Below are positions 25,348-58,656 of a stretch of DNA of 64,000 bases, in pieces. The notes under the pieces are model-generated. The model did no database searches, was not told where the DNA came from, and worked only from the letters and a program-made list of their open reading frames with translations. The translations under genes and the position numbers were made by a program. The DNA is from a phage, in the sequence record PZ445451.1, one strand, 5' to 3'. Positions within the stretch are counted from its first letter, which is position 1. The number at the start of each line of letters is the position of its first letter.

Positions 25348-25653
25348 ATGAATAAGATGTTCACACAGCCCACTGGCCCAGTGGCTAAACAGGTTAATAA
25401 ACAAGCCATTGCCCGTAAGTTTGGTGTTAAGCAGAATGAAGTAGTTTACTTCGCTGTAGGTGCTGTACTAAGTGGATATAAGATTATCTATGATAAGGAG
25501 ACGCAAAGGGCGTATTCCCTACCTACTGATATTGCCCCAGGTATTACTGCCATTAGTCTTAGTGCTGCTGTACTTGTGCATTCAGCGGGTTCTGTAGACC
25601 TTGGGGAATTAGCTGTATATCGTGATTTAAAAAGTAATGAGAACGCACCATGA
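25348..25653 (+). CDS. Hypothetical protein
   Basis: 101 aa ORF with GAGGA RBS. Confidence 0.4.
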   Translation: MNKMFTQPTGPVAKQVNKQAIARKFGVKQNEVVYFAVGAVLSGYKIIYDKETQRAYSLPTDIAPGITAISLSAAVLVHSAGSVDLGELAVYRDLKSNENAP

Positions 25654-25895
25654 GAAAATTTTTAATAGGTATGTTTTGTACATATCCTGATAATAAAGTC
25701 AGTTCTACTAAAGTTTGGAATGCTATTGGTATGATTGTTATGTCCAGTATGTTTATTTATTTGGGAATTGATAAAGAAATTCCTGAGTGGATGGGCTGGG
25801 CTTTTGTTTTTATGATCACACCCTCCAGACTAATGAAGAGTTTAATAGATTTACGTTGGGGCAGATCACCTGCCCCTGATAAGGAGGATAACTAA
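25650..25895 (+). CDS. Small membrane protein (two predicted TM helices)
   Basis: 81 aa; hydrophobic stretches IGMIVMSSMFIYLGI and WMGWAFVFMI; ATGA start/stop overlap. Confidence 0.4.
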   Translation: MRKFLIGMFCTYPDNKVSSTKVWNAIGMIVMSSMFIYLGIDKEIPEWMGWAFVFMITPSRLMKSLIDLRWGRSPAPDKEDN

Positions 25896-29581: not shown

Positions 29582-29923
29582 ATGGAGCTAACAGAAGTAT
29601 GGGATATCGCTAAAGAGGCGATTATCCCTCTTATTGGCGTAATCTGGGTGGTCTTCAAACAGAAGATAGATGATATGGCAAGTGATTTGGATAAAATGGA
29701 AGACAAATACCGCGAACTAGAAAAGAAGTTGGTGTTTGTTGAATCCACTTATGCTACCAAAGCAGAACTTGCTCAAATGCTTAACCAGATCAACTCTACA
29801 TTAATGGCAAATAATACTGCCTTAGAACAGAAGATTGAAAAAATAATGGATTTAAAAAATGCTCCTGTTCAATTAATGTTAGAGGAGATTACGAAGCGCA
29901 CACAAAGTAAGGACAAAAATTAA
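29582..29923 (+). CDS. Membrane-anchored coiled-coil protein (unknown function)
   Basis: 113 aa; N-terminal TM segment IIPLIGVIWVVF followed by a heptad-like charged region. Confidence 0.35.
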   Translation: MELTEVWDIAKEAIIPLIGVIWVVFKQKIDDMASDLDKMEDKYRELEKKLVFVESTYATKAELAQMLNQINSTLMANNTALEQKIEKIMDLKNAPVQLMLEEITKRTQSKDKN

Positions 29924-47860: not shown

Positions 47861-48835
47861 TTAAAGACTTTCAATAACTTGACGACGCAGTTCATTGGCA
47901 TCTGCAAGATTATAATTAAGACGAACGTGTTCTGCAAGCATCATACCACGATCTTCTGTGTATCTAGGGTTCCTCATTAGCTTGACAACTTCATAATGCC
48001 AAGATGCTTTAGAGTCTGCATAGATAACAGCCTTTGCATCTACCGGATTGAAGTACGGCAGCACAGGAGAACAGATAATAGGAAGACCCTTTGCACCTGC
48101 TTCCAAAATCTTCAAATTGCTTTTACAGTTGTTGAAGTCATTATCTACCAGAGGAGCAATTGCAATACTGTGACCGTCATACACAGACATATACTCACCT
48201 AAATTTTTAATAGCTGGTTTATACTGTGCATTTGGAATTTTACGTTTTATTTTAACCCACTCCGCAGTAGTTAGATACTGACTGTTATTTCCAACAGGTG
48301 CAGAAGGATACACTTCATACCCTGCAATTGTCAATAGTGTATCATCAAATGTATTAGCTACAAGAGATAAATCAGGTTCATGGCTTGCTCCTCCAGCCCA
48401 AACAATAGGCGTGTCAGAATAACGGTCTTTTGTTAAAGTAAATTGACCTTCGTCGTAAGGCAGTGCGTTTCTAATAACGACAACATTACGATTTAAATGA
48501 CGAATTTTGTAAGCTAGGTATTCTGTTGTTACTGTAACAACATCTGCTAACTTAACCATCTCTACAATAGTTTTTGAGTGATTAGTAAATACGCCAGCCA
48601 TATAATGTTCAGGATTAAGCGAATAAAAATCATCTAAATCAACAATAATCTTAACACCTTGTGCCTTCAGGCGTTTAACTTCGTCTGATCCACGAGAATA
48701 CACTCTATTAAAAACTAAAACGTCTTTCTTAGGCTTAAACGTATTTCCCGCAAATGGCATTACAATACGATGGTAATCACAACCACTGCCTAACTTATTA
48801 TCACACTTAAGTACAGGAGTATTAGGATTTACCAT
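47861..48835 (-). CDS. Glycosyltransferase-like protein (GT-B-like), paralog B
   Basis: Shares CD(Y/F)HRI, APLV(D/N)N.FNN.KSNLKILEAGAKGLP and other blocks with paralog A; start set at the internal Met (MVNPNTPVLKCD) that aligns with the paralog and avoids overlap. Confidence 0.5.
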   Translation of the reverse strand: MVNPNTPVLKCDNKLGSGCDYHRIVMPFAGNTFKPKKDVLVFNRVYSRGSDEVKRLKAQGVKIIVDLDDFYSLNPEHYMAGVFTNHSKTIVEMVKLADVVTVTTEYLAYKIRHLNRNVVVIRNALPYDEGQFTLTKDRYSDTPIVWAGGASHEPDLSLVANTFDDTLLTIAGYEVYPSAPVGNNSQYLTTAEWVKIKRKIPNAQYKPAIKNLGEYMSVYDGHSIAIAPLVDNDFNNCKSNLKILEAGAKGLPIICSPVLPYFNPVDAKAVIYADSKASWHYEVVKLMRNPRYTEDRGMMLAEHVRLNYNLADANELRRQVIESL

Positions 48836-49508
48836 ATTTTTGAGCCTCCTCATAAGAGATAAAAGTTTTACCATTGCGAAGATCCTCCAGTGATTGTTTA
48901 TATTGTTCCCAGTTTACACCAATCCCCTGTTCTTTCTCTTCTTTTGACAGATTCGCAAAAGGTAAAGGATTATCTCCAAACACATCGTCAGGATGGATAA
49001 ACGCCATAATTCGAATAGGACATGGTACACCGAGAATGCCTCGGTTCAAACCTGCCAGTGGAACGCGCTGAATCCACTCTGCATCTTCATATCCATAACC
49101 GTGGGTGTATGAGCGGAAATAGCCAGCTTTCTCAATAACTGCACGGGAATACATACCAAACTGGCACATACCTAGTTCCCAAATAACCACCTCCCCTTCA
49201 ATACCTTTTACTTTATCTTTAAAGTATTCAGGCATACCAAAGAAATCCCAACCATTTTCCTTTGCCTGTTTTACAAAATATGTTTCCCACCCTGGAACAA
49301 CAGGGTAGCAATCATCATCAAAAATAAACCAGTAGTCATACCCTTCATCATAAAACTTTTTCATCAGTTCATTACGGGCATATGCAACACCTTTTCGTTC
49401 ACGATCATACTGTACAACAAAAGTAGCATTAGGATCAGTCACAAGATAATCTTTAAGAGGACGCTTACCTACAGTAATAACACCAACACCAATTTTTGTA
49501 TTTTCCAA
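48822..49508 (-). CDS. Glycosyltransferase family 2-like protein (GT-A fold)
   Basis: 228 aa; DxD motif in FIFDDDCYP; YGYEDAEW block typical of GT2 enzymes. Confidence 0.5.
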   Translation of the reverse strand: MENTKIGVGVITVGKRPLKDYLVTDPNATFVVQYDRERKGVAYARNELMKKFYDEGYDYWFIFDDDCYPVVPGWETYFVKQAKENGWDFFGMPEYFKDKVKGIEGEVVIWELGMCQFGMYSRAVIEKAGYFRSYTHGYGYEDAEWIQRVPLAGLNRGILGVPCPIRIMAFIHPDDVFGDNPLPFANLSKEEKEQGIGVNWEQYKQSLEDLRNGKTFISYEEAQKYGKS

Positions 49509-49517
49509 AATAACTCC

Positions 49518-50081
49518 TTAAATAATTTTATTCATGTCTTGACAATGTAAAAGGTGTGAAACAGCTTTTCTAGGATCATCATTACCTAAACGGTAGGTGT
49601 GAAATAAATATAACCCACGTAATAAACCTAGCCTTTTGTTGTTAGCATGTAATGCTTTAGAGAAAATTATATCAAACTGTATTGACCTTTCCTCAAAAGG
49701 GATTTCATTCCACAGACTCTTACGAAAGAGAAGAAAGAATCCTGCTAAGATAGCATCTGTAGGTACTTCCTCTATTGAGTTTCCCCATTCTAGATGTGCT
49801 CTTTTTGCAATCTCAATGTGGTGTAATATATTCGGATCTTCACTTCTTTCATTATTAAATAATTGATATGTTGATCCCAATCTGTTACAAGATGCACCAA
49901 GAACATCAAAATCAGGATTTGAACGGACAATTGATTCCAGCCAAGCAGGTTGTTCTGGAAGAAGAAACATTGTATCAATGTCTCTTAGGCAAATCCAACT
50001 ATCTTCTGGTAAGACACTTATTGTGTCATTGATACCTTTTCCAATATCTCCAGAAAGATAGGGAGTTATGTGAAATATCAT
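49518..50081 (-). CDS. Hypothetical protein, possibly GT-A-like
   Basis: 187 aa; ICLRDIDTMF DxD-like motif; adjacent to three glycosyltransferase-like genes. Confidence 0.35.
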   Translation of the reverse strand: MIFHITPYLSGDIGKGINDTISVLPEDSWICLRDIDTMFLLPEQPAWLESIVRSNPDFDVLGASCNRLGSTYQLFNNERSEDPNILHHIEIAKRAHLEWGNSIEEVPTDAILAGFFLLFRKSLWNEIPFEERSIQFDIIFSKALHANNKRLGLLRGLYLFHTYRLGNDDPRKAVSHLLHCQDMNKII

Positions 50082-50138
50082 ACTCCCTCCGTATTATTAC
50101 TTTAGCATTTTTAGACTAAAAAGTCAAAATGGTTTTAC

Positions 50139-50333
50139 CTATTGATTACGTTTTGCGAGTTCCATTTGGATAGCTAAACTGTGATCTCGTGCTTCCATAT
50201 ACTCTTTATATGTTTCATTAAGATGATCACGACAAACATCACGCAGTTTAATCAGTTTATCTGTAGGGATACCACTAAGATCATCCCAAGATTTTACAAC
50301 TTCACCAGTATCATTGATCCCAATGGTTTTCAT
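50139..50333 (-). CDS. Hypothetical small protein
   Basis: 64 aa ORF in the - strand gene array. Confidence 0.3.
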   Translation of the reverse strand: MKTIGINDTGEVVKSWDDLSGIPTDKLIKLRDVCRDHLNETYKEYMEARDHSLAIQMELAKRNQ

Positions 50334-50589
50334 CTACAACCTCCTTAATTGCTACAGCACAGTTTTTGCAGATACACTGCCCTTTACCTTTAGAAATCTG
50401 GATGTAAGGTTCATTTTCATTTTCGCCCTTACGTGAGTCATATATTACAGAATTGAAGCACACAACGCAAATATTTTTTAAGATTGTATACTTATCAACT
50501 TTCTTTTTTGTTTTAAAGTTAACTTCAATAACATCAGCCATCAGTGTAACACTCCCAGTATATTGCTTTGTGACATAACCATAGAACAT
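50311..50589 (-). CDS. Hypothetical Zn-ribbon protein
   Basis: 92 aa with CVVC...CICKNC cysteine pairs. Confidence 0.35.
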   Translation of the reverse strand: MFYGYVTKQYTGSVTLMADVIEVNFKTKKKVDKYTILKNICVVCFNSVIYDSRKGENENEPYIQISKGKGQCICKNCAVAIKEVVDENHWDQ

Positions 50590-50819
50590 TCAACATTATC
50601 GTGACTACGTGAAAAACGTTCCCAAACATCTTCATCGACTCGTAAAGCTATACAAGGATAGACGTTATCATTGATCATTTCAATTGAATAAACATCCACA
50701 TTGTCTTCGTCTTCGATGAACATCATTGCAAACTGTTCTAAATGTTTCCTAATGTAATGTACATCCTCTTCTGTAAGACCAATAACAAGATAACTTGCAA
50801 CGATAACGCCATCTTTCAT
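50541..50819 (-). CDS. Hypothetical protein
   Basis: 92 aa ORF; 5' region overlaps the upstream gene. Confidence 0.3.
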   Translation of the reverse strand: MKDGVIVASYLVIGLTEEDVHYIRKHLEQFAMMFIEDEDNVDVYSIEMINDNVYPCIALRVDEDVWERFSRSHDNVECSMVMSQSNILGVLH

Positions 50820-50829
50820 CTATATCTCC

Positions 50830-51339
50830 TTAGCGATAGAATTGATGTTCTTTGTAGCGGTACACTAGAACCATATCTTTTTCCCAGTGTGCTCTTATTG
50901 TAGATTTTTTAAAGTATAATGCTCCTTTTGTAATATCTAATGCAATTCGTAATTCTGGAAAATGCGTATCGAGATAAAGTAGACGTTCTGCTATAGCCTT
51001 AGCTTCCTTCCACTTATCACGTTCCATAACGTTGAATGTCTTTGTGTAAGAGAATTGTCCTTTTTGAAACAAAACTTCTTTTATAGTATCAGGGAAATAT
51101 GAATCTCTAGCCCTATTCAATACTACATTACCAACAGCAGACATACCGCGCTTTCCTTGATTACGACTTTCTGCATAGATTGCACAAGCTAATAGATTTT
51201 CTTTACTATCACGCTTTGTACACTTGTGAACTACTTTAGCAGTTTTTACGTTTGCAGCTTCGGCTTGCGCCACAACAGGTGTAAATGTAAAAGCAGTTAA
51301 GGATAGTAACGCAATTGCGACAAAGGTTTTTATTGACAA
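50830..51339 (-). CDS. Cell-wall hydrolase, SleB/CwlJ-like (putative endolysin) with N-terminal signal peptide
   Basis: 169 aa; signal-like N-terminus MSIKTFVAIALLSLTAFTFTPVVAQA; core CAIYAESRNQGKRGMSAVGNVVLNR resembles the SleB-family hydrolase domain. Confidence 0.55.
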   Translation of the reverse strand: MSIKTFVAIALLSLTAFTFTPVVAQAEAANVKTAKVVHKCTKRDSKENLLACAIYAESRNQGKRGMSAVGNVVLNRARDSYFPDTIKEVLFQKGQFSYTKTFNVMERDKWKEAKAIAERLLYLDTHFPELRIALDITKGALYFKKSTIRAHWEKDMVLVYRYKEHQFYR

Positions 51340-51431
51340 ACTTGCCTCCTATTTTGTTAAACGAACTTTTATTGTAACACAGAAGAGGCTGTTTTGCAAG
51401 TGGAGGGGGATTATCCCCCTCTTAGACTCTG

Positions 51432-52034
51432 TTAGATATTGTAAACCTTTGTATGAGTTACTACACCATCTTCTACAAAATCAATACGTTCTTGATCCGT
51501 AACTAGTGCAGACAACACTTTAAATTTAATTTTTACACGTTCAAAAGCTGGTTGACCATCTTTAAGATAATTATGTTCGGTTGTCACTGTCTTGTTTACA
51601 AAATCAACTTTCGCTTTACCGTTTTCGCGCAAGTGGAATGTTTTTCCTGCTTTATACACAATTTCAACATTACCTTCGAGAGTAATTCCTTCAAAAAGTT
51701 CACCCTCTTCTTCATTTTCTTCACTTTTGAACAGACGACGAAACTCTTCCATATCAAGATAAACAACATCTTCAGAACAACTATCAGTAAGGTATGTCTT
51801 ACCATCCATTAACCCGAAATATTGCCAGATCGCAGAATAAACATCACTAGTTGATCCAAGGGTTTCCCTGAGTTTAGTTCCACGGATTACCTCATAAACT
51901 TCAAAACTGAAACCAGACTGCAAAGCATTAAACAGTACATCACTAACTTCTAAAGCATAATCTTCATTGTTGTCAATATCCACAAGAAAATTGCCGCTAC
52001 GAATAAGTTTTTGACCTTCTAAAGTAATACCCAT
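51432..52034 (-). CDS. Hypothetical protein
   Basis: 200 aa acidic ORF; GC-rich hairpin downstream. Confidence 0.4.
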   Translation of the reverse strand: MGITLEGQKLIRSGNFLVDIDNNEDYALEVSDVLFNALQSGFSFEVYEVIRGTKLRETLGSTSDVYSAIWQYFGLMDGKTYLTDSCSEDVVYLDMEEFRRLFKSEENEEEGELFEGITLEGNVEIVYKAGKTFHLRENGKAKVDFVNKTVTTEHNYLKDGQPAFERVKIKFKVLSALVTDQERIDFVEDGVVTHTKVYNI

Positions 52035-52057
52035 TGTTTTCTCCTCTTCTATTTAAA

Positions 52058-52080
52058 ATATGCGCCCCGAAGGGCGCTAT
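52058..52080 (-). terminator. Hairpin terminator downstream of the TerD-like gene
   Basis: gcgccc-cgaa-gggcgc stem-loop. Confidence 0.4.
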
Positions 52081-52086
52081 GATTTA

Positions 52087-52683
52087 TTACTCGAACCAAT
52101 CGTCGCCAGCGCCAAACGCTTTAACTACATCGTAAATGTCAAGCCCAGCTTTACCTACACCATATGCTTTCAGTTTCCATTCACTGTCTTCCCGTACCAG
52201 GGAGGCAACGTGGCAAATGGTGTTACCTGCAAGTTCTGGAGCCAAGAAGTCAAAGTCCAGCAGTTCAACATTACGTTCATCATCGAAGATTTTAAGGAAA
52301 CCTTCGGTAGCGTGACCAAGGCGTTTCTTACCCGTTTCGTCATCAATAGTAATTACGAATGCAATTTCCTGTGCTTCAGCAGAGATATTATCCAGTGTAA
52401 CATCAATCTGCTCCATTTGTCCTACACCGTCACGAACATCTTCACCTGCAAAAGTAGAACGTTCAGGATCAAATTTCTGTGCGTAGCATACCAGGTGGCG
52501 AGGAGACAACAGTTCCGGCAGACCAGATGCATTGTGTCGGCAAATCAGAGCACTAACATCCAGATCCAGTTTTTCGTTAGATTTCCAAGAGAATTCCAGA
52601 CGAATACGTTTCAGTGCTGGTGCGATCTTTTTCAGAGAAACTTTTTCGCTAGAACCTTTTTTCAGGGAAATTTTCTGAGTCAT
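52087..52683 (-). CDS. terD: TerD-family protein (tellurite-resistance / stress-response domain)
   Basis: 198 aa; colinear with bacterial TerD in N-terminal ISLKKG...VSLKK, DLDVSA, hydrophobic IAFVITIDD block and C-terminal EWKLKAYGVGKAGL. Confidence 0.7.
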   Translation of the reverse strand: MTQKISLKKGSSEKVSLKKIAPALKRIRLEFSWKSNEKLDLDVSALICRHNASGLPELLSPRHLVCYAQKFDPERSTFAGEDVRDGVGQMEQIDVTLDNISAEAQEIAFVITIDDETGKKRLGHATEGFLKIFDDERNVELLDFDFLAPELAGNTICHVASLVREDSEWKLKAYGVGKAGLDIYDVVKAFGAGDDWFE

Positions 52684-52755
52684 AATTTATTATCTCCTTT
52701 GTTGTTAATTTACGTTGTCTATTTTACTAATCTTTTCTACAAAGTCAAGCGTTTT

Positions 52756-53550
52756 TTACGCTTTTGCTCCAAATTTTTTAACCCACTCACCAAACTCTTC
52801 GGATAGTAGTTTATCGTAAAGTTCTTCGTCAGACAAGGACAAATCTGCAATACCGATAAAATCAACATTATCATATTCTTTTGCCAAGTCTTTCAGGAAT
52901 TTAAAGTTTGCATTACCTACACCAACCATAAACCAGTAAACAGGTGTATTGCGGTGTTTGTTCAGTAAGCTACGTACTGCTGAAGTATCCATGTTCTCCC
53001 CGTCAGTTTGGAAGAAAATCATTGCAGGAGTACGATCAACTTGTGCATCAGTATCTACAACCTGTTCTACAACAGTACGTGTAACTTCTACAAGTTCTTT
53101 TTTACCAGTTAGTTTAGCAAGGAAACCCTTAGCCGGAACTTCTTCATACTCAACGACTTCGCGTGTAATATTTTTCATAGGTACACTACCGAAGTATGTA
53201 TCATAGATCTCTTGCATTACTGGGGCATAAGCTGTACCACCATTGATGCAAACATTAGACATACAAGAGCCGACATAATCATCATATACATCAGCCGTTG
53301 CAGGAGGCAGTTCAAAAGAAGAACTATTGAAAGCCCACATGTCAATCTGTGCATTATCATCAAACTTCATACCAAACGGCAGCAGCTTACCTACAAAATC
53401 ACTAACAGTGCCATCACGATACAGCTCACACATACTACCCGAAATGTCTAAGGCGCTACCGACACGAAGAACAACATCGTTAATCTTTTTCTTACGCAGA
53501 GATACAGTAAGAGTTTCTTGACGTTTTTTAAGACTGATTTTATTGGACAT
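52756..53550 (-). CDS. vWA-domain protein (TerY/TerF-like)
   Basis: 264 aa; MIDAS motif DISGSM after a hydrophobic strand, later FFQTDGENMD; N-terminus ISLKK...VSL resembles the TerD N-terminus. Confidence 0.55.
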   Translation of the reverse strand: MSNKISLKKRQETLTVSLRKKKINDVVLRVGSALDISGSMCELYRDGTVSDFVGKLLPFGMKFDDNAQIDMWAFNSSSFELPPATADVYDDYVGSCMSNVCINGGTAYAPVMQEIYDTYFGSVPMKNITREVVEYEEVPAKGFLAKLTGKKELVEVTRTVVEQVVDTDAQVDRTPAMIFFQTDGENMDTSAVRSLLNKHRNTPVYWFMVGVGNANFKFLKDLAKEYDNVDFIGIADLSLSDEELYDKLLSEEFGEWVKKFGAKA

Positions 53551-53551
53551 A

Positions 53552-53821
53552 TTATTTCTCCTTTCTGAGTGTAATGTTAGTAACTTCTAAATCCACTTCT
53601 ACCATTTCTGTATCATATGAAATACAGCTAAGTTGACCTCTTTGTGAACCGTTCAGACACATCGCTTGGTTTGTATTAACCTTAATAAACACTAAGTTTC
53701 TGAACGTATCTAAACCAGAATCTTGATAGGCAACATAATATACAAATGTATCACCTGCGTCAAGTTCTCCAAAACATTTAGGTTCATCTGATTTGTCGTC
53801 TTTGATATTAAATTTAAGCAC
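53552..53821 (-). CDS. Hypothetical protein
   Basis: 89 aa ORF coupled to its neighbours. Confidence 0.3.
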   Translation of the reverse strand: MLKFNIKDDKSDEPKCFGELDAGDTFVYYVAYQDSGLDTFRNLVFIKVNTNQAMCLNGSQRGQLSCISYDTEMVEVDLEVTNITLRKEK

Positions 53822-54377
53822 TATCTCCTCCTTTACCTACTTTCCAACCTAAATAGAAAGCCTCTCTGGTGATTTTTTGCAACTCGTTTAAAGAGATAGT
53901 TACAACTAAATCATCTTCAATTTCTAGCTTTGAGTCTTCTTCTGTCTCAATGCAAGTATTATGCACTTTGTGGTAAGGATTGTCAACACGTTTAAATTTA
54001 TTATTTTCAGTGCTGAAGAAGCAATCTGGATCTTCTTCTCCATCACCCCAACCCTGGTTAGGGTCTTCTTCAGATCTTTCTGTTGGGATTTCACCTGTAA
54101 AGTGCTCTTCTAACACCATAGCAATACCATCCCCAAGATCGGAAGAGAACATCAAATTACAAACTTCTTCCCAAGGCATAGACCACTTGAATCTTTTACG
54201 ATTGCCATGTTTATCTTCTTCGTTAGAGAAAACACTACCATAGCTATCATAATTGCCATACATCTCTTCAACAACTTTACCACCTTTCAAAAGAAATAGG
54301 TAGCAAGGAGAGCCATCGAAAGAGGTAGAAAGAGCAGCATTACCAGACTCTTTGCACAAGAAACTAAAACATCCCAT
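53814..54377 (-). CDS. Hypothetical acidic protein with a C-terminal motif shared with the next gene
   Basis: 187 aa; C-terminal ISLNELQKITREAFYLGWKVGKGG resembles the N-terminal HLTREELQTIMEDAFIDGWKQGQE of ORF 54377..54577. Confidence 0.35.
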   Translation of the reverse strand: MGCFSFLCKESGNAALSTSFDGSPCYLFLLKGGKVVEEMYGNYDSYGSVFSNEEDKHGNRKRFKWSMPWEEVCNLMFSSDLGDGIAMVLEEHFTGEIPTERSEEDPNQGWGDGEEDPDCFFSTENNKFKRVDNPYHKVHNTCIETEEDSKLEIEDDLVVTISLNELQKITREAFYLGWKVGKGGDSA

Positions 54378-54577
54378 TATACACCAGCCTTAAGATCAAT
54401 TATAGCCAAAGTTGTTTCAGAGTGTGTTTGCTCGTCTACAGGTGCAGTCATATGATAATACAAAAAATCTTCAACATCATACCAATCTGACTCTTGACCT
54501 TGTTTCCAACCATCAATGAAAGCATCTTCCATAATGGTTTGTAACTCTTCACGAGTTAAGTGAATATCTTTACTCAT
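54377..54577 (-). CDS. Hypothetical small protein
   Basis: 66 aa; shares the L..ELQ.I...AF..GWK.G motif with the downstream gene. Confidence 0.3.
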   Translation of the reverse strand: MSKDIHLTREELQTIMEDAFIDGWKQGQESDWYDVEDFLYYHMTAPVDEQTHSETTLAIIDLKAGV

Positions 54578-54810
54578 TACACATTCTCCTCTTTTACCAA
54601 TTCCATCGTTGAACTATCAAAACCATCTTTAGAAGAATAGGTATAGACAGAACGTAGTTCTCGCAGGACAGTAAATACATTAGGATCATCTAACCAAGCA
54701 TCCTGGAGGAGAACATAACGATCTTCATTGTCGTACTGGACAGCGATCATAGAACCAGACAGTTTGTAAATTTTAATATTCATAATATATTTCTCCTTAA
54801 AGTAGACCAC
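54577..54810 (-). CDS. Hypothetical small protein
   Basis: 77 aa ORF. Confidence 0.3.
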   Translation of the reverse strand: MVYFKEKYIMNIKIYKLSGSMIAVQYDNEDRYVLLQDAWLDDPNVFTVLRELRSVYTYSSKDGFDSSTMELVKEENV

Positions 54811-55900
54811 GTTTAACAGTTTGAATCATACCATCTTCAAGAGATTGCACTTCTTGAATGTAATCAATACGAGCAGCACGGGCTTCAGTGTTGATTCGGT
54901 TAGTTTCTTCCAACATTTTAACTAAGTTTTCTTGATCACGACGTAATGTTTCAATATCCAATACTTGACGATTAGCAAGTTGTGTAGCTTCAATCTGGTT
55001 TTGTGCAGCCAGATCACTACCCATTGCAATAGCAGCATTAAATTCATTCAGTACGTTGTTCTGTGTATCGGCTGCTTTCTTCTGGCGTAGACTTTCAATA
55101 TACATAGAAAAGTTTGCAGAGTAAGCAGGGATAACGTTATTCACAATATTACGGGCTGATCGCATCAAACTTGCAGATACTTTCTGCATACTTTGTACAC
55201 GTGGCCCCATCTGAACACAGAGTAAACGTAAGGCTTTCAGGTCTGCAATACGAATTTCAAGCAGATCCATAGTATCACGAGTACGTTTACGCTCTTCTAC
55301 TTCATTTTCAGGTAGTGTATTAAGGCGAACTTCTTCTTTTTCATAAGTAGCTGTTAGAAGCTCTATATCCCTGTTTAAGCTAAGAGCATATTTTGCAATA
55401 GCCTCTTCTAAACGTTGCAGATATCGTAAAGAATCTTCTTCTTTTTTCAAGTCTGTTTGGAGTATCTTTACCAAACCTTCAATACGGTTATTGATGGTGT
55501 CAAATTCTCCAAACAAATCTTCTTTCATACCTAAAACTTTCTTAACTAGTTTACCTAAACCTTTAGATTGTTTAATAGAGTTAGGATCAAGTTGCTTTGC
55601 TTGCTTAATAAGTGCAGTTAAACGTTCACTCATTTCATCTCCCTGAGATGAACGCTGGTGTTTAAGCACTTCAGCATTAAGGTTACGAAGAGTAAGTCCT
55701 GCATCAGCACCAACCTGTTCAATCTCTTCACGAGACATTGGAGGCAGCATTTGTACAGGGCGTGCAACAGCAGGGGCATATACAGGACTTGCATCCATAG
55801 CACTTGGAGCAAACAAAGACTTACTTTTTTCTGTTGTTGCCGTGAATACACTCATTTCAGACGGTTTGCTTTTTACGGCACTGATAAAAGGACTGGACAT
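54797..55900 (-). CDS. TelA-like (toxic anion resistance family) protein, putative
   Basis: 367 aa largely alpha-helical/coiled-coil protein of TelA-like size and composition, within a TerD/TerC neighbourhood; assignment by eye only. Confidence 0.4.
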   Translation of the reverse strand: MSSPFISAVKSKPSEMSVFTATTEKSKSLFAPSAMDASPVYAPAVARPVQMLPPMSREEIEQVGADAGLTLRNLNAEVLKHQRSSQGDEMSERLTALIKQAKQLDPNSIKQSKGLGKLVKKVLGMKEDLFGEFDTINNRIEGLVKILQTDLKKEEDSLRYLQRLEEAIAKYALSLNRDIELLTATYEKEEVRLNTLPENEVEERKRTRDTMDLLEIRIADLKALRLLCVQMGPRVQSMQKVSASLMRSARNIVNNVIPAYSANFSMYIESLRQKKAADTQNNVLNEFNAAIAMGSDLAAQNQIEATQLANRQVLDIETLRRDQENLVKMLEETNRINTEARAARIDYIQEVQSLEDGMIQTVKRGLL

Positions 55901-55968
55901 TCAATTTCCTCCATATTCTTTAGTAGATGGTGATACCTCTGTACCACCATCATAACACAAATTAAGTA

Positions 55969-56820
55969 TTAAACAAACATATCTAAATAATTTGTAGTAA
56001 TAAATGCTCCATCTGCTTCCAGATTAACATAACCAGTAGCATTAGTGGTTAAGAAATCCAGATCGAAGGACTCTTTAACACCACGTACCTCAACACGAGA
56101 AATATCGAATACAGGTAGTGTAACAGCCTCTTCGTGCAATACCGTACCTTTGTAGGTTGCCTTAATGATAAACTTGATATTACCCGTTCCCGCATCATAC
56201 AAAACACTTTCAAAGCCTTTGAGAGTATACTTATCACCAGAGGTGAAGTGCAAAGTTGCTTTGTTTACAGTACGTTTTTTACGAGGAGTTCCTTTCACAC
56301 GTTTATGATCACTACGTTTTTTGTATTTAGGAATGAATACAAACGATACACTCTCAAGAAAGGTATCAACATCAAGGATTTTAATATCCTCTGTTGCAGC
56401 AAATTTTGAAGTCGTTGCATCAAAATGCTTTTCCCTGCGATCATACATAAAGATATCAAAACGATCTTCTAAATCAAACAAATTATGTATCTTAATTTCA
56501 GAATGTTTGCACATTGCAGCAACCTTAAACTCTTCAAAACGTGGGTGTTCTACAAGCTCTTCAAGTTTTACACCAAAGACAGTATATTGCTTCGAAGTCT
56601 TTTCTGGTGTTGGCATTACAGAAGCATAGTCCCCGATTGCGCTCTTAAAGCAAAATTGCTCTTGACCTGTATTTTTACCAACGAATTTACAGTATTCGTC
56701 ATCGTGCATACTTTCTTTGGTAGTACCAACAAACTCAAAACCATCTTTATTCTTCTCAAGAATTTCTTGATTAAAGATCCAACCTTCCAGGCGATACACT
56801 TTACCAACTTCTAGTTTCAT
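55969..56820 (-). CDS. Hypothetical protein
   Basis: 283 aa ORF within the Ter-like gene neighbourhood. Confidence 0.4.
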   Translation of the reverse strand: MKLEVGKVYRLEGWIFNQEILEKNKDGFEFVGTTKESMHDDEYCKFVGKNTGQEQFCFKSAIGDYASVMPTPEKTSKQYTVFGVKLEELVEHPRFEEFKVAAMCKHSEIKIHNLFDLEDRFDIFMYDRREKHFDATTSKFAATEDIKILDVDTFLESVSFVFIPKYKKRSDHKRVKGTPRKKRTVNKATLHFTSGDKYTLKGFESVLYDAGTGNIKFIIKATYKGTVLHEEAVTLPVFDISRVEVRGVKESFDLDFLTTNATGYVNLEADGAFITTNYLDMFV

Positions 56821-56855
56821 CTGTTTCTCCTTCTTATTTAATCTGTATTAAATTA

Positions 56856-57446
56856 TTAACGACGACGTGAGCTACTAAAACTACGTTTCGACGAAGAATA
56901 ACTTTTCGAAGACTTACTATAAGAGCTAATAGGACTTGAGTAAGACTTACGAGCAGAGTAATCACTATTCACTTTTGTTGTTGATGGGCGTGAATACGTT
57001 TGTACACTTTGCTGCTTAATTGTGTTTTGTTTAGTGGTTGTATATGTATTTACAGGTTTATCATAAAAACTACGCTTTTGTGTTGTATATGATTTACTGT
57101 TAGTTGTAGGAGCAGCATTGTTATTAATAATGGTTGTATTGCTACCGCCATCTCTATAACCACCACCGCCACTATTACCACTCAACATATGACCAAGAAG
57201 CATACCTGTAGCAAATTCACCTACACCAGAAGAACTACTACCACCTCCTTGCACAACAACTGTTGAAGGTTGTGCAGGTGCTGCTTGAACAACTTGAGGT
57301 GCAGGTTGATTTACATATTGTTCATCTACCATCTGATTTGGTGTTTGTTGGTAACGTTGATTTTGTACATTTTCAGAATCATCACAACCTACCAGCAATG
57401 CACTACCTAATACAACTGCAACAATAAAAGATTTAATGTTTTTCAT
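56856..57446 (-). CDS. Lipoprotein (lipobox LLVGC), Gly-zipper-like segment and Ser/Tyr/Lys-rich low-complexity tail
   Basis: Signal peptide MKNIKSFIVAVVLGSALLVGC; GGGSSSSGVGEFATGMLLGHMLSG; C-terminal SYSKSSKSYSSSKRSFSSSRRR; start placed at the Met preceding the signal peptide. Confidence 0.5.
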   Translation of the reverse strand: MKNIKSFIVAVVLGSALLVGCDDSENVQNQRYQQTPNQMVDEQYVNQPAPQVVQAAPAQPSTVVVQGGGSSSSGVGEFATGMLLGHMLSGNSGGGGYRDGGSNTTIINNNAAPTTNSKSYTTQKRSFYDKPVNTYTTTKQNTIKQQSVQTYSRPSTTKVNSDYSARKSYSSPISSYSKSSKSYSSSKRSFSSSRRR

Positions 57447-57639
57447 TTGTAACCCTCTCATTTAAAGTCTCAACACAATTTTTAAAATCCCTAGAGAAAC
57501 AATACATCTGTTCTCCGTTCCTGTTGATAGTAATTGTATGGTTATCAATGTATGTTGTCAAGATAAAAATCAAACAAAATAACCCTAAAGCAAAACAAAT
57601 ATTTTCAAACAGAATCCAAAGAACACGTAAAACCACCAT
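57433..57639 (-). CDS. Small membrane protein
   Basis: 68 aa with hydrophobic N-terminal LRVLWILFENICFALGLFCLIFILTTYI. Confidence 0.35.
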   Translation of the reverse strand: MVVLRVLWILFENICFALGLFCLIFILTTYIDNHTITINRNGEQMYCFSRDFKNCVETLNERVTNEKH

Positions 57640-57653
57640 CAGATCACCTCAAC

Positions 57654-57673
57654 AAAGCCCCCGAAGGGGCTTA
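57654..57673 (-). terminator. Hairpin terminator downstream of the TerC-like gene
   Basis: agcccc-cgaa-ggggct stem-loop. Confidence 0.4.
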
Positions 57674-57678
57674 ATGAA

Positions 57679-58656
57679 TTAAGCAACAGTCTGGTCTTCT
57701 TTTTCAGGGAAGATTAAACTTGCAATAACACCCAGCCCCAGAGTACCTAACACAATATACATACTGATCGTCGGATCAATGTGTGCTGGCAGGAAACTCA
57801 CTTTTGCGTGCAGAGTTTCTGCAAACGGGTGATACATCAGTTTTACACCCACAAATACCAGGACTACGATAACTGCTTTCTCCAGATGAACCAAATATTT
57901 CAGTGCAACACTAAGGACAAAGAACAGAGCACGTAGACCTAAAATTGCACACAGCATTGAAGAAAATACAAGCAGAGGTTCTTGTGTCACTGCAATTACT
58001 GCTGGAACAGAGTCTACTGCAAAGATTACGTCAACCATTTCCATTACAAACACACAAACCAGAGCCGGAGTTGCTACACGAACACCATTTTTGATTGTGA
58101 AGAACTTCTCACCATCCATCTGATCAGATACAGGGAACAGCTTACGAACAATGCGAGTAACCCAGTGTTTAGAGTAATCAACTTCTGCGTCATTATCTCC
58201 AGCGAATACCATTTTAGCTGCACAGAAAAGGATGACCGCACCGAAGAAGATATTAACATACCAGCCCAAACTCAACAAGTAAGTGCCTACTGCTACAAAC
58301 ACACCTCGGAAGACAATCGCACCTGCAATACCCCAAAGTAGAATCTTGTGTTGCAAGTGTGTGCTTTTAATACCAAAACTTGCGAATACTGCCACAAATA
58401 CTACTAAGTTATCTACAGAAAGAGATTTCTCCAACACATACCCACTCAAGAACAAGCTCGCAAAATCAGCACCGTGTTGGAAGTATACAAAACCATAGTA
58501 GGCTAATGATACCCCAATCCAGAAAATTGACCAACCAACTGCCGATTTAAATGAAATCTCTTTGTTTTCTCTGTGTCCAAAGAAATCAATACAAATCGAC
58601 AACACTAAAATACCCACTAAAACAACCACATCAATAATTGGGAAACCCAGTTGCAT
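57679..58656 (-). CDS. terC: TerC-family integral membrane protein
   Basis: 325 aa, multiple TM helices; motif EKSLSVDNLVVFVAVF typical of the TerC/Alx family. Confidence 0.65.
   Translation of the reverse strand: MQLGFPIIDVVVLVGILVLSICIDFFGHRENKEISFKSAVGWSIFWIGVSLAYYGFVYFQHGADFASLFLSGYVLEKSLSVDNLVVFVAVFASFGIKSTHLQHKILLWGIAGAIVFRGVFVAVGTYLLSLGWYVNIFFGAVILFCAAKMVFAGDNDAEVDYSKHWVTRIVRKLFPVSDQMDGEKFFTIKNGVRVATPALVCVFVMEMVDVIFAVDSVPAVIAVTQEPLLVFSSMLCAILGLRALFFVLSVALKYLVHLEKAVIVVLVFVGVKLMYHPFAETLHAKVSFLPAHIDPTISMYIVLGTLGLGVIASLIFPEKEDQTVA

What the first reader, a model, noticed from the sequence alone, without database searches (positions are those of the whole stretch)
50830..51339. SleB-type endolysin carrying an N-terminal signal peptide, with no obvious adjacent holin
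The putative endolysin belongs to the SleB/CwlJ hydrolase type and starts with a cleavable-looking signal sequence, implying Sec-dependent export (secretory or signal-anchor-release type) rather than holin-dependent release. The flanking small ORFs on the - strand are not obviously holins, and the two small membrane proteins embedded in the tail cluster (25650-25895, 29582-29923) are candidate holin or spanin-like components located elsewhere.
Basis: partly seen in the sequence, partly recalled or inferred. Interest (0 to 1): 0.35.

Follow-up and report, generated by a model that had tools for sequence, protein, structure and literature searches.

The report
Secreted second cell-wall hydrolase of phage
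The gene is real and encodes an exported SleB/CwlJ-type cell-wall hydrolase, but it is a known accessory enzyme of phi92-like coliphages, which carry a separate T4-type lysozyme and spanins just outside this window.

Summary
The window is Escherichia phage PaulScherrer (Bas60, MZ501100.1, Justusliebigvirus), record positions 676-64675. The ORF 50830-51339 (-) is gene bas60_0055, the homologue of phi92 gp170.

**What holds up**
- It is a 169-aa protein with one Hydrolase_2 (SleB/CwlJ) domain.
- A confident model matches only the SleB catalytic domains, and the catalytic Glu57 is invariant.
- The N-terminus looks like a classic cleavable Sec signal (MSIK-TFVAIALLSLTAFTF-TPVVAQA|EA).
- Homologues in T5-like, rV5-like and PVP-SE1-like phages keep such a signal.
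- None of the flanking ORFs is a membrane protein.

**What does not hold up**
- Calling it "the endolysin" is not supported. The same genome encodes a full-length, signal-less T4 gp e-type lysozyme (bas60_0207), which the depositors annotated as the endolysin.
- An i-/o-spanin pair lies immediately upstream of window position 1.
- Related lineages each pair this conserved secreted hydrolase with a different canonical endolysin.

**Best reading:** a Sec-exported accessory lytic transglycosylase that works beside a holin/T4-lysozyme/spanin pathway. Its precise role is untested.

The dual hydrolases, the signal peptide and the 81-aa holin candidate are already in published genome papers. A side finding is a conserved leader that hides the ribosome-binding site in read-through transcripts.

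Interest is low: already known.

The parts
50830..51339 (-). bas60_0055 (homologue of phi92 gp170): 169-aa precursor of a secreted SleB/CwlJ-type (Hydrolase_2) cell-wall hydrolase; the stop codon is 50830-50832
51265..51339 (-). Signal-peptide codons, residues 1-25: MSIK / TFVAIALLSLTAFTF / TPVVAQA. Predicted signal peptidase I cut after Ala25; the alternative is after Ala27.
   Evidence: Sequence features. The architecture is conserved in close relatives, in T5-, rV5- and PVP-SE1-like homologues, and in 99 of 104 family representatives. The model has a helix at 5-19 only.
50833..51237 (-). Folded catalytic domain, about residues 35-169; the catalytic Glu57 codon GAA is at 51169-51171; Cys40 and Cys52 are invariant in close relatives
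51344..51350 (-). Shine-Dalgarno sequence AGGAGGC, 5 nt before the TTG start
   Evidence: the GGAGGC core is present in all 9 relatives
51371..51399 (-). Sigma-70-like promoter TTGCAA-N17-TACAAT with an extended -10 TG. Its spacer holds GCCTCTT (51383-51389), complementary to the Shine-Dalgarno sequence.
   Evidence: The scan as a whole is not above chance (34 found against 27 expected), so the site rests on its position and its conservation.
51403..51421 (-). GC-rich hairpin (8-bp stem GAGGGGGA/UCCCCCUC) after the stop of the upstream gene; it has no U-tract
25650..25895 (+). bas60_0029: 81-aa protein with two transmembrane segments and a charged C-terminus, inside the tail-fibre cluster. It is a holin candidate only.
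   Evidence: PMC12210895
29582..29923 (+). bas60_0034: 113 aa, one N-terminal transmembrane segment plus a coiled coil, no Cys (so not a lipoprotein). Its role is unknown and it is not the annotated i-spanin.

Best explanation
bas60_0055 encodes a small exported murein hydrolase.

**Export (inferred).** The precursor is translated from a TTG start with a strong ribosome-binding site. It is taken through SecYEG by a classic N-terminal signal peptide. Signal peptidase I cuts it after Ala25 (or Ala27), releasing a basic soluble periplasmic protein of about 16.9 kDa. Its two conserved cysteines can be oxidised there.

**Activity (inferred from fold and invariant Glu57).** Like the SleB catalytic domain, it most likely cleaves the MurNAc-GlcNAc bond as a lytic transglycosylase.

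**Role (inferred from genome content and comparative genomics).** It is an accessory wall-degrading enzyme, not the phage's canonical endolysin. That role belongs to the signal-less T4 gp e-type lysozyme bas60_0207. This lysozyme needs a still unidentified holin and works with the Rz/Rz1-type spanins bas60_0001/0002. The secreted enzyme reaches the sacculus without a holin. It probably weakens or helps dismantle the wall in parallel with that pathway.

**Expression (inferred).** Expression appears to be gated by its own promoter and by a leader that masks the ribosome-binding site in read-through transcripts.
For: - **Domain, fold and catalytic Glu:**
- **Signal peptide:** the sequence; the conserved architecture despite a variable c-region in 12 close relatives; T5 MKAALLLVAALTFSFSSQA|SHD, rV5-like ..LSLPVVA|APK and PVP-SE1-like ..TTTPVLA|KEN; 99 of 104 representatives have an N-terminal hydrophobic segment, with a median core of 13 residues; 94 of 107 have at least 2 Cys in the mature part.
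- **Second hydrolase and spanins in the same genome:**
- **Co-occurrence across the subfamily:** the T4 e-like gene is found at >=95% identity in 56 records and at 60-90% in 78; the SleB-like gene at >=95% in 55 and at 60-80% in 77.
- **A different canonical endolysin in each related lineage:** LL12 gp90 with a lambda R-like motif by my reading, and its rV5 counterpart Gp89, filed under pfam00959 Phage_lysozyme; PVP-SE1 gp146 (PMC3352856); CB7 M15 peptidase (PMC7344957); T5-like M15C peptidase next to the holin (PMC11180984).
- **Published support:** the CB7 homologue has a signal peptide and is toxic when expressed in E. coli. Two 'lytic proteins' are reported for Stephanstirmvirinae.
- **Genomic setting:** the gene lies in a non-structural minus-strand block with replication, glycosyltransferase and Ter-like genes.
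- **Leader gating:**
Against: - No experiment on any phage homologue was found. Activity, export, cleavage and contribution to lysis are all inferred.
- The conservation pattern can be read the other way: the conserved SleB-like enzyme could be the core lysin and the variable enzymes the add-ons.
- In Seunavirus and Certrevirus, a small holin-like protein with two transmembrane segments sits right after the SleB-like gene. This hints at a dedicated lysis pair there.
- The T4 e-like gene also lies in a non-structural block with no adjacent holin, so gene position does not settle which enzyme drives lysis.
- SleB's natural substrate (muramic-delta-lactam cortex) is absent from E. coli, so the substrate is uncertain.
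Confidence: 0.6

Rival explanations
1. It is the phage's principal endolysin, of the secretory type (like Lys44 of Oenococcus phage fOg44). It would be exported and processed early and held inactive by the energised membrane. A holin or pinholin would then unleash it by collapsing the proton-motive force. The T4 e-like lysozyme would be auxiliary.
For: - It carries a signal peptide and is conserved in every Vequintavirinae, Stephanstirmvirinae and T5-like genome examined, while the other hydrolase varies.
- A holin-like gene with two transmembrane segments lies directly downstream in Seunavirus and Certrevirus.
- The CB7 homologue is toxic in E. coli.
- RefSeq and several depositors call it 'endolysin'.
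Against: - A complete T4 gp e homologue co-occurs across the subfamily; I read its catalytic-triad positions as retained against T4 lysozyme recalled from memory, not from a tool result.
- In T5-like phages the M15C-type endolysin lies next to the holin, while the SleB-like gene lies far from it.
- There is no holin next to it in PaulScherrer and no homologue of the Seunavirus two-segment protein.
- Periplasmic lytic transglycosylases are not intrinsically lytic in E. coli (own knowledge: Slt70).
Confidence: 0.2
2. It is a signal-anchor-release (SAR) endolysin. The N-terminal segment would not be cleaved. It would tether an inactive enzyme to the inner membrane until depolarisation releases it.
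For: The uncharged N-terminal stretch is 22 residues and fairly rich in Ala/Ser/Thr (10 of 22). Two diverged relatives carry a Cys inside the segment.
Against: - Pro21 breaks the helix, and two small-x-small cleavage motifs follow it.
- The model shows only a 15-residue helix.
- Homologues in T5 and rV5-like phages have hydrophobic cores of 12-15 residues, too short to span a membrane. The family median is 13.
- The c-region varies but keeps cleavable motifs.
Confidence: 0.07
3. It is an exported wall hydrolase whose main job is not lysis. It could remodel the sacculus during infection, for example to allow cell enlargement, to act on septal or denuded glycan, to exclude superinfecting phages, or as part of the membrane-stress (Ter-like) module it sits in.
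For: - The synteny TelA / vWA-TerF / TerD / SleB-like / glycosyltransferases is kept in relatives down to 61% identity.
- In rV5- and PVP-SE1-like phages it lies next to rIIA/rIIB.
- It lies in the early-gene region in T5-like phages.
- It is always accompanied by another, apparently sufficient endolysin.
Against: - The neighbours differ between lineages, so there is no conserved functional partner.
- No phenotype has been reported.
- In T5-like phages the canonical lysozyme/holin pair also maps to the 'early' region, so position says little.
Confidence: 0.13

Closest known systems
phi92 gp170 and its homologues in Stephanstirmvirinae and Vequintavirinae (phAPEC8 gp067, PVP-SE1 gp243, CB7_83, CR3_087), annotated 'putative cell wall hydrolase (SleB)' or 'endolysin'
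   Same: Same gene family and same place in the genome. Identity is 98-99% to other Justusliebigvirus, about 75% to Phapecoctavirus and about 35-40% to Vequintavirinae. The signal peptide was already noted for CB7_83.
   Different: Nothing substantive. PaulScherrer's own record simply leaves it as 'hypothetical protein'.
Bacillus SleB and CwlJ spore cortex-lytic enzymes (PDB 4F55, 4FET)
   Same: The catalytic-domain fold and the catalytic glutamate. It is a single-domain protein, like CwlJ (PMC12331253).
   Different: About 22% identity. It lacks SleB's N-terminal peptidoglycan-binding domain and falls far below the SleB equivalog cut-off (51.9 against 236.5 bits). The host has no muramic-delta-lactam cortex, and no YpeB/GerQ-type partner was noticed among the annotated products.
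T5-like 'SleB putative cell wall hydrolase' (149 aa in T5_ev219)
   Same: A secreted single-domain Hydrolase_2 protein that coexists with a canonical holin/endolysin pair elsewhere in the genome.
   Different: About 35% identity over the catalytic domain. The Cys positions differ: E-8 and the FPxxxC motif, against E-17 and E-5 here.
Secretory endolysin Lys44 of Oenococcus phage fOg44, and SAR endolysins (P1 Lyz, R21)
   Same: Sec-dependent, holin-independent access to the wall (own knowledge; reviewed in PMC6116005, listed).
   Different: Those are the sole endolysins of their phages and belong to other catalytic families. Here a canonical cytoplasmic lysozyme is also present, and the N-terminus looks cleavable rather than SAR-like.
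Translational control of T4 gene e (lysozyme)
   Same: In longer upstream-initiated transcripts the ribosome-binding site is buried in a hairpin. Transcripts started at the gene's own promoter lack the 5' arm (own knowledge, McPheeters et al. 1986). The same layout is predicted here and in 8 relatives.
   Different: Here it is only predicted. There is no transcript mapping and no covariation. The promoter is sigma-70-like, not a T4-type late promoter.

Membership tests
Pfam Hydrolase_2 (PF07486, SleB/CwlJ catalytic domain) | Profile match above the gathering score | tested here: met
   72.1 bits against a cut-off of 27, E=6.5e-20, covering profile positions 2-100 of 100
Pfam Hydrolase_2 (PF07486, SleB/CwlJ catalytic domain) | SleB catalytic-domain fold | tested here: met
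   Model pLDDT 91.6. The only significant PDB matches are 4FET and 4F55 (probability 1.00, TMt 0.73-0.79).
Pfam Hydrolase_2 (PF07486, SleB/CwlJ catalytic domain) | Catalytic glutamate | tested here: met
   Glu57 aligns to the Glu of SleB 'YGESRGE'. It is invariant in 104 homologues of 27-66% identity.
Pfam Hydrolase_2 (PF07486, SleB/CwlJ catalytic domain) | Lytic transglycosylase activity on peptidoglycan | not testable with these tools
   This needs muropeptide analysis of digests.
SleB proper (spore cortex-lytic enzyme, TIGR02869) | Equivalog score cut-off | tested here: not met
   51.9 bits against a cut-off of 236.5
SleB proper (spore cortex-lytic enzyme, TIGR02869) | N-terminal peptidoglycan-binding domain before the catalytic domain | tested here: not met
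   Only Hydrolase_2 is found. Residues 26-37 are a short low-confidence linker.
Canonical holin-dependent endolysin | No export signal; accumulates in the cytoplasm | tested here: not met
   The N-terminus has signal-peptide features.
Canonical holin-dependent endolysin | Encoded with holin and/or spanins | tested here: not met
   The flanking ORFs have no transmembrane segment. The spanins lie about 51 kb away at record 1-667.
Secretory (signal-peptide) endolysin | Cleavable N-terminal Sec signal | tested here: inconclusive
   All sequence features fit, and they are conserved across lineages. No dedicated predictor or experiment was available.
Secretory (signal-peptide) endolysin | Is the enzyme that lyses the host at the end of infection | tested here: inconclusive
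   A complete T4 e-type lysozyme co-occurs in all relatives. Genetics is needed.
SAR endolysin | Uncleaved, weakly hydrophobic N-terminal transmembrane segment of about 20 residues | tested here: not met
   The core is 16 residues and is followed by Pro and AXA motifs. The modelled helix covers residues 5-19. Homologue cores are 12-15 residues and the family median is 13.
Virion-associated lysin | Encoded in the structural module or found in virions | tested here: not met
   It lies in a non-structural minus-strand block. It is not among the rV5 virion proteins listed in the main text of PMC3606486. The phi92 proteome paper could not be read.

The most novel reading that the evidence does not exclude
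The secreted SleB/CwlJ-like enzyme is a distinct, conserved second arm of envelope attack. It is shared by T5-like, rV5-like and phi92-like virulent phages and has a role that the interchangeable canonical endolysins cannot fill, for example holin-independent pre-weakening or remodelling of the sacculus. Its synthesis would be gated by a leader that silences translation from read-through transcripts, as in T4 gene e.
Probability: 0.3. Interest if true: 0.5.

Novelty: already known. Interest (0 to 1): 0.22.

Why it matters
This matters mainly as a correction. In these widely used broad-host-range coliphages, the SleB-like gene should not be taken as the endolysin, and lysis should not be assumed to be holin-independent.

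An open question remains. Many large virulent phages of Gram-negative hosts keep a secreted SleB/CwlJ-type hydrolase alongside a canonical endolysin, and it is not known why. Which enzyme sets lysis timing is also untested.

PaulScherrer belongs to the BASEL collection, a published set of E. coli K-12 phages built for laboratory study, so both questions should be answerable by simple deletions.

Tried and rejected
- **Shallow structure model.** The first AF2 model, built on 12 close homologues, was poor (pLDDT 59.9). It was replaced by the 104-sequence model.
- **Word-indexed homologue search.** It returned only close phage relatives, so the exhaustive representative search was needed.
- **Promoter evidence.** The sigma-70 scan is not above chance for the region (34 found against 27.2 expected). 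Similar promoters precede both structural and non-structural genes, so the promoter type gives no temporal class.
- **Late-promoter motifs.** T4-like and rV5-like late motifs (TATAAATA, TggTAaAAtA) are not placed before either hydrolase gene.
- **Consensus RNA folding.** RNAalifold on the 9-sequence leader alignment did not recover the pairing between the ribosome-binding site and its complement. The alignment is out of register and the ribosome-binding site never varies. Only the per-sequence folds show the pairing. One of 7 control leaders (TerC) shows a similar pairing, so the feature is suggestive, not proven.
- **Seunavirus holin-like protein.** No homologue of the two-segment protein that follows the SleB-like gene in Seunavirus exists in PaulScherrer.
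- **Unavailable source.** The phi92 genome/proteome paper (PMC3457257) is not held.
- **Holin identification.** Many small membrane ORFs exist in the genome, so the holin cannot be named from sequence alone.
- **ORF 29582-29923 as a spanin.** This was rejected. The annotated Rz/Rz1-like pair at record 1-667 matches spanin PHROGs strongly (E=3e-40 and 3e-17), whereas this ORF matches one only weakly (E=5e-4).

Full report
**Identity of the window.** A megablast of 49500-53600 gives a 100% match to Escherichia phage PaulScherrer (Bas60, MZ501100.1, 150,425 bp; Stephanstirmvirinae, Justusliebigvirus, the phi92 group). About 54 other records match at 98-99%. I assembled the whole record from fetched loci. 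The window equals record 676-64675 with one substitution, at window 54474, which is A where the GenBank record has G. The finding is gene bas60_0055, annotated 'hypothetical protein'. It is the homologue of phi92 gp170, which is annotated 'endolysin' in RefSeq and 'putative cell wall hydrolase' in many records.

- The ORF 50830-51339 (-) encodes 169 aa. It starts at TTG, preceded by AGGAGG with a 5-nt spacer.
- Pfam finds one domain, Hydrolase_2 (SleB/CwlJ), at 72.1 bits against a cut-off of 27. PHROGs places it in 'endolysin' phrog_938.
- phmmer against the PDB aligns AIYAESRNQ...NVVLNR to AVYGESRGE...AVILNR of the SleB catalytic domains 4F55 and 4FET.
- A first AF2 model from 12 close homologues was poor (pLDDT 59.9). 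With 104 diverse homologues the model reached pLDDT 91.6.
- Foldseek against the PDB returned only the SleB catalytic domains as significant matches (probability 1.00, TMt 0.73-0.79).
- Glu57 and Arg76 are the only invariant residues across those 104 sequences. The glutamate is the residue shown to be essential for SleB's lytic transglycosylase activity (PMC12331253).
- The protein is not an SleB orthologue. It scores 51.9 bits against a cut-off of 236.5 for the spore_SleB equivalog and lacks the N-terminal peptidoglycan-binding domain. Its single-domain build resembles CwlJ.

**The signal peptide.**
- The N-terminus reads MSIK (n-region, +1 charge), then TFVAIALLSLTAFTF (hydrophobic core), then TPVVAQA|EA (helix-breaking Pro, AQA and AEA motifs, acidic +1 residue).
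- From my own knowledge, this resembles the E. coli PhoA (..LLFTPVTKA) and OmpA (..ATVAQA) signals.
- In 12 relatives of 60-98% identity the hydrophobic core is nearly invariant. The c-region varies but keeps a cleavable small-x-small motif.
- More distant homologues have unrelated but equally typical signals: T5-like MKAALLLVAALTFSFSSQA|SHD, rV5-like VKIKIFAIILSALLSLPVVA|APK and PVP-SE1-like ..AFSLTTTPVLA|KEN.
- Of 104 family representatives, 99 have an N-terminal hydrophobic segment. The median hydrophobic core is 13 residues, which is signal-peptide length, not membrane-anchor length. Of 107 sequences, 94 have at least two Cys in the mature part, which fits a periplasmic protein.
- The model shows a helix only at residues 5-19, followed by coil up to residue 37.
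- I therefore favour a cleaved Sec signal over a SAR anchor. No dedicated predictor was available, so cleavage remains inferred.
- The predicted mature protein is 144 aa, 16.9 kDa, pI 9.7.

- Outside the window, at record 118281-118781 (-), lies bas60_0207. The depositors annotated it 'endolysin'.
- It is a 166-aa, signal-less, full-length homologue of T4 lysozyme. It begins [37 protein letters not shown]. By my own comparison with T4 lysozyme recalled from memory, its Glu15, Asp24 and Thr30 correspond to the T4 catalytic residues E11, D20 and T26. It matches PF00959, and phmmer against T4L gives E~1e-52 over residues 6-165 versus 2-161.
- An i-spanin/o-spanin pair (bas60_0001/0002, record 1-667) lies immediately upstream of the large terminase gene, which starts at window position 1. 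Both match Rz-like spanin PHROGs at E=3e-40 and 3e-17. The o-spanin has a lipobox, LMMTGC.
- The phage therefore has the parts of a canonical holin/endolysin/spanin pathway. Only the holin is unassigned.

**Comparative genomics.**
- The two hydrolases co-occur throughout the subfamily.
  - The SleB-like protein is found at >=95% identity in 55 records and at 60-80% in 77.
  - The T4 e-like protein is found at >=95% in 56 records and at 60-90% in 78.
- Related lineages keep the secreted SleB-like enzyme but pair it with a different canonical endolysin.

| Lineage | Canonical endolysin | Source |
|---|---|---|
| rV5-like (LL12, rV5) | LL12 gp90 (lambda R-like motif by my reading) and its rV5 counterpart Gp89, filed under pfam00959 Phage_lysozyme; named as the endolysin | |
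| PVP-SE1 | modular gp146 | PMC3352856, |
| CB7 | M15 peptidase | |
| T5-like | M15C peptidase next to the holin, with the SleB-like gene far away | |
| phi92-like and phAPEC8-like | T4 e-type lysozyme | |

- This pattern argues that the secreted enzyme has a conserved role that is not redundant with the canonical endolysin. It does not say what that role is, and it can be read the other way (rival 1).

**Gene neighbourhood.**
- The neighbours are not conserved between lineages.
  - In the phi92 group the order is TelA-like, vWA-TerF, TerD, a 200-aa protein, the SleB-like gene, three small soluble proteins, then four glycosyltransferases. This order is kept in metagenomic relatives down to 61% identity.
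  - In rV5-like and PVP-SE1-like phages the gene sits directly upstream of rIIA/rIIB.
- In Seunavirus and Certrevirus a small protein with two transmembrane segments follows it. PaulScherrer has no homologue of that protein.

**What is already published.**
- The CB7 paper states that the Vequintavirinae SleB-like protein has a signal peptide, is toxic on expression in E. coli, and is one of three candidate wall hydrolases (PMC7344957).
- The iGC_PHA_EC001 announcement reports 'two lytic proteins', PF00959 and PF07486 (PMC10793346).
[quoted passage not shown] It points to 61- and 81-residue class II holin-like proteins encoded elsewhere (PMC12210895).
- None of these papers tested function. One states explicitly that which endolysin is used remains to be determined (PMC11180984).

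**The two small membrane ORFs.**
- ORF 25650-25895 (81 aa) has two transmembrane segments and a charged tail. It is conserved in the tail module of 372 phage records across both subfamilies. It is annotated 'membrane protein' or 'hypothetical' and never 'holin' in the records listed. It is a fair holin candidate and no more.
- ORF 29582-29923 (113 aa) has one N-terminal transmembrane segment and a coiled coil. It contains no cysteine, so the PHROG label 'lipoprotein' cannot apply. Its spanin similarity is marginal (E=5e-4), and a strong spanin pair exists elsewhere.
- A genome-wide hydrophobicity scan finds many other small membrane proteins.

**A side finding: the leader of the gene.**
- The 92-bp intergenic region upstream (51340-51431) contains three elements:
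  - a GC hairpin (51403-51421);
  - a sigma-70-like promoter, TTGCAA-N17-TG-n-TACAAT (51399-51371);
  - inside the promoter spacer, GCCUCUU (51383-51389), complementary to the ribosome-binding site AGGAGGC (51344-51350).
- RNA that includes the promoter region folds so that the ribosome-binding site is paired. In most of the 9 folds, PaulScherrer included, the TTG start region is paired as well. The fold energy is -28.1 kcal/mol for the 101-nt leader, with z=-3.7.
- RNA beginning just after the -10 element lacks the 5' arm.
- The layout, including a CU-rich element in the spacer, is present in all 9 relatives examined: PaulScherrer, phAPEC8, phiWec190 and six metagenomic loci of 61-77% protein identity. 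Each read-through RNA pairs its ribosome-binding site at -11 to -22 kcal/mol.
- The other promoters I inspected have no such spacer element, except a similar pairing before TerC.
- RNAalifold did not recover the pairing and there is no covariation, so this is a hypothesis. It parallels the translational control of T4 gene e (own knowledge). It would make sense for a potentially harmful exported hydrolase.

**Verdict.**
- The gene is a known member of a known family in a published genome. The claims of 'the endolysin' and 'no holin needed' disappear once the rest of the genome is read.
- The most likely mechanism is Sec export, signal-peptidase cleavage and lytic-transglycosylase action in the periplasm, as an accessory to a holin/T4-type lysozyme/spanin pathway.
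- My confidence is about 0.85 that it is an exported Hydrolase_2 enzyme and about 0.6 that it is accessory rather than principal.
- Interest is low. The residual open question, why so many large virulent coliphages keep this secreted second hydrolase, could be tested by simple deletions.

Noticed in passing
window 51340-51431 (- strand): The leader of the SleB-like gene has a GC hairpin and a sigma-70-like promoter. The promoter spacer holds GCCUCUU, complementary to the ribosome-binding site. Read-through RNA is predicted to mask the ribosome-binding site in all 9 diverged relatives, and the TTG start region as well in most of them; promoter-initiated RNA is not. This resembles T4 gene e control. 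There is no covariation.
   Followed up: partly
outside the window: MZ501100.1 118281-118781 (-), locus L006 17782-18282: A full-length, signal-less T4 gp e-type lysozyme (bas60_0207) is annotated as the endolysin. It lies next to a glutaredoxin and a dTDP-rhamnose biosynthesis operon, with no membrane protein beside it.
   Followed up: yes
outside the window: MZ501100.1 1-667 (locus L007), immediately upstream of window position 1: An overlapping i-spanin/o-spanin pair (Rz-like PHROGs; o-spanin lipobox LMMTGC) lies directly before the large terminase gene, as in rV5, PVP-SE1 and CB7.
   Followed up: yes
window 52087-58656 (- strand): A Ter-like membrane-stress cluster: TerD (52087-52683), vWA-TerF-like (52756-53550), a TelA-like gene (annotated 'tellurite resistance' in phi92) and TerC (57679-58656). 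It is followed by genes annotated macrodomain, phosphoribosyltransferase and HAD. The order TelA / vWA-TerF / TerD / SleB-like is kept in metagenomic relatives down to 61% identity.
   Followed up: partly
window 25650-25895 (+): An 81-aa protein with two transmembrane segments, inside the tail-fibre cluster. It is conserved in 372 phage records across Vequintavirinae and Stephanstirmvirinae and is not annotated as holin in the records listed. A paper on the relative BME3 proposes an 81-residue class II holin.
   Followed up: partly
window 29582-29923 (+): A 113-aa protein with an N-terminal transmembrane segment and a coiled coil. It falls in PHROG 15210 'lipoprotein' but has no cysteine, so that label cannot be right. 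Its similarity to Rz-like spanins is weak (E=5e-4).
   Followed up: partly
window 56856-57461 (-): bas60_0065 (201 aa) has a lipoprotein signal (..ALLVGC) with Asp at +2, which predicts retention in the inner membrane. A Gly/Ser/Asn-rich low-complexity region follows. The overlapping small ORF 57433-57639 is also a membrane protein.
   Followed up: no
window 47861-50081 (-) and upstream: Four consecutive glycosyltransferase or 'disaccharide synthase' genes lie just downstream of the SleB-like gene, and a dTDP-rhamnose pathway lies elsewhere in the genome. The BASEL paper notes that these phages are nevertheless very sensitive to restriction-modification systems, so the glycosylation target is unclear.
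   Followed up: no
window 54474: The only difference between the window and GenBank MZ501100.1 across the 64 kb: A in the window, G in the record (record position 55149).
   Followed up: no
locus L013 3024-3197 (Salmonella phage SalP219): In Seunavirus, a 57-aa holin-like protein with two transmembrane segments and a basic tail sits between the SleB-like gene and rIIA/rIIB. The CB7 paper reports the same for Certrevirus. PaulScherrer has no homologue.
   Followed up: partly
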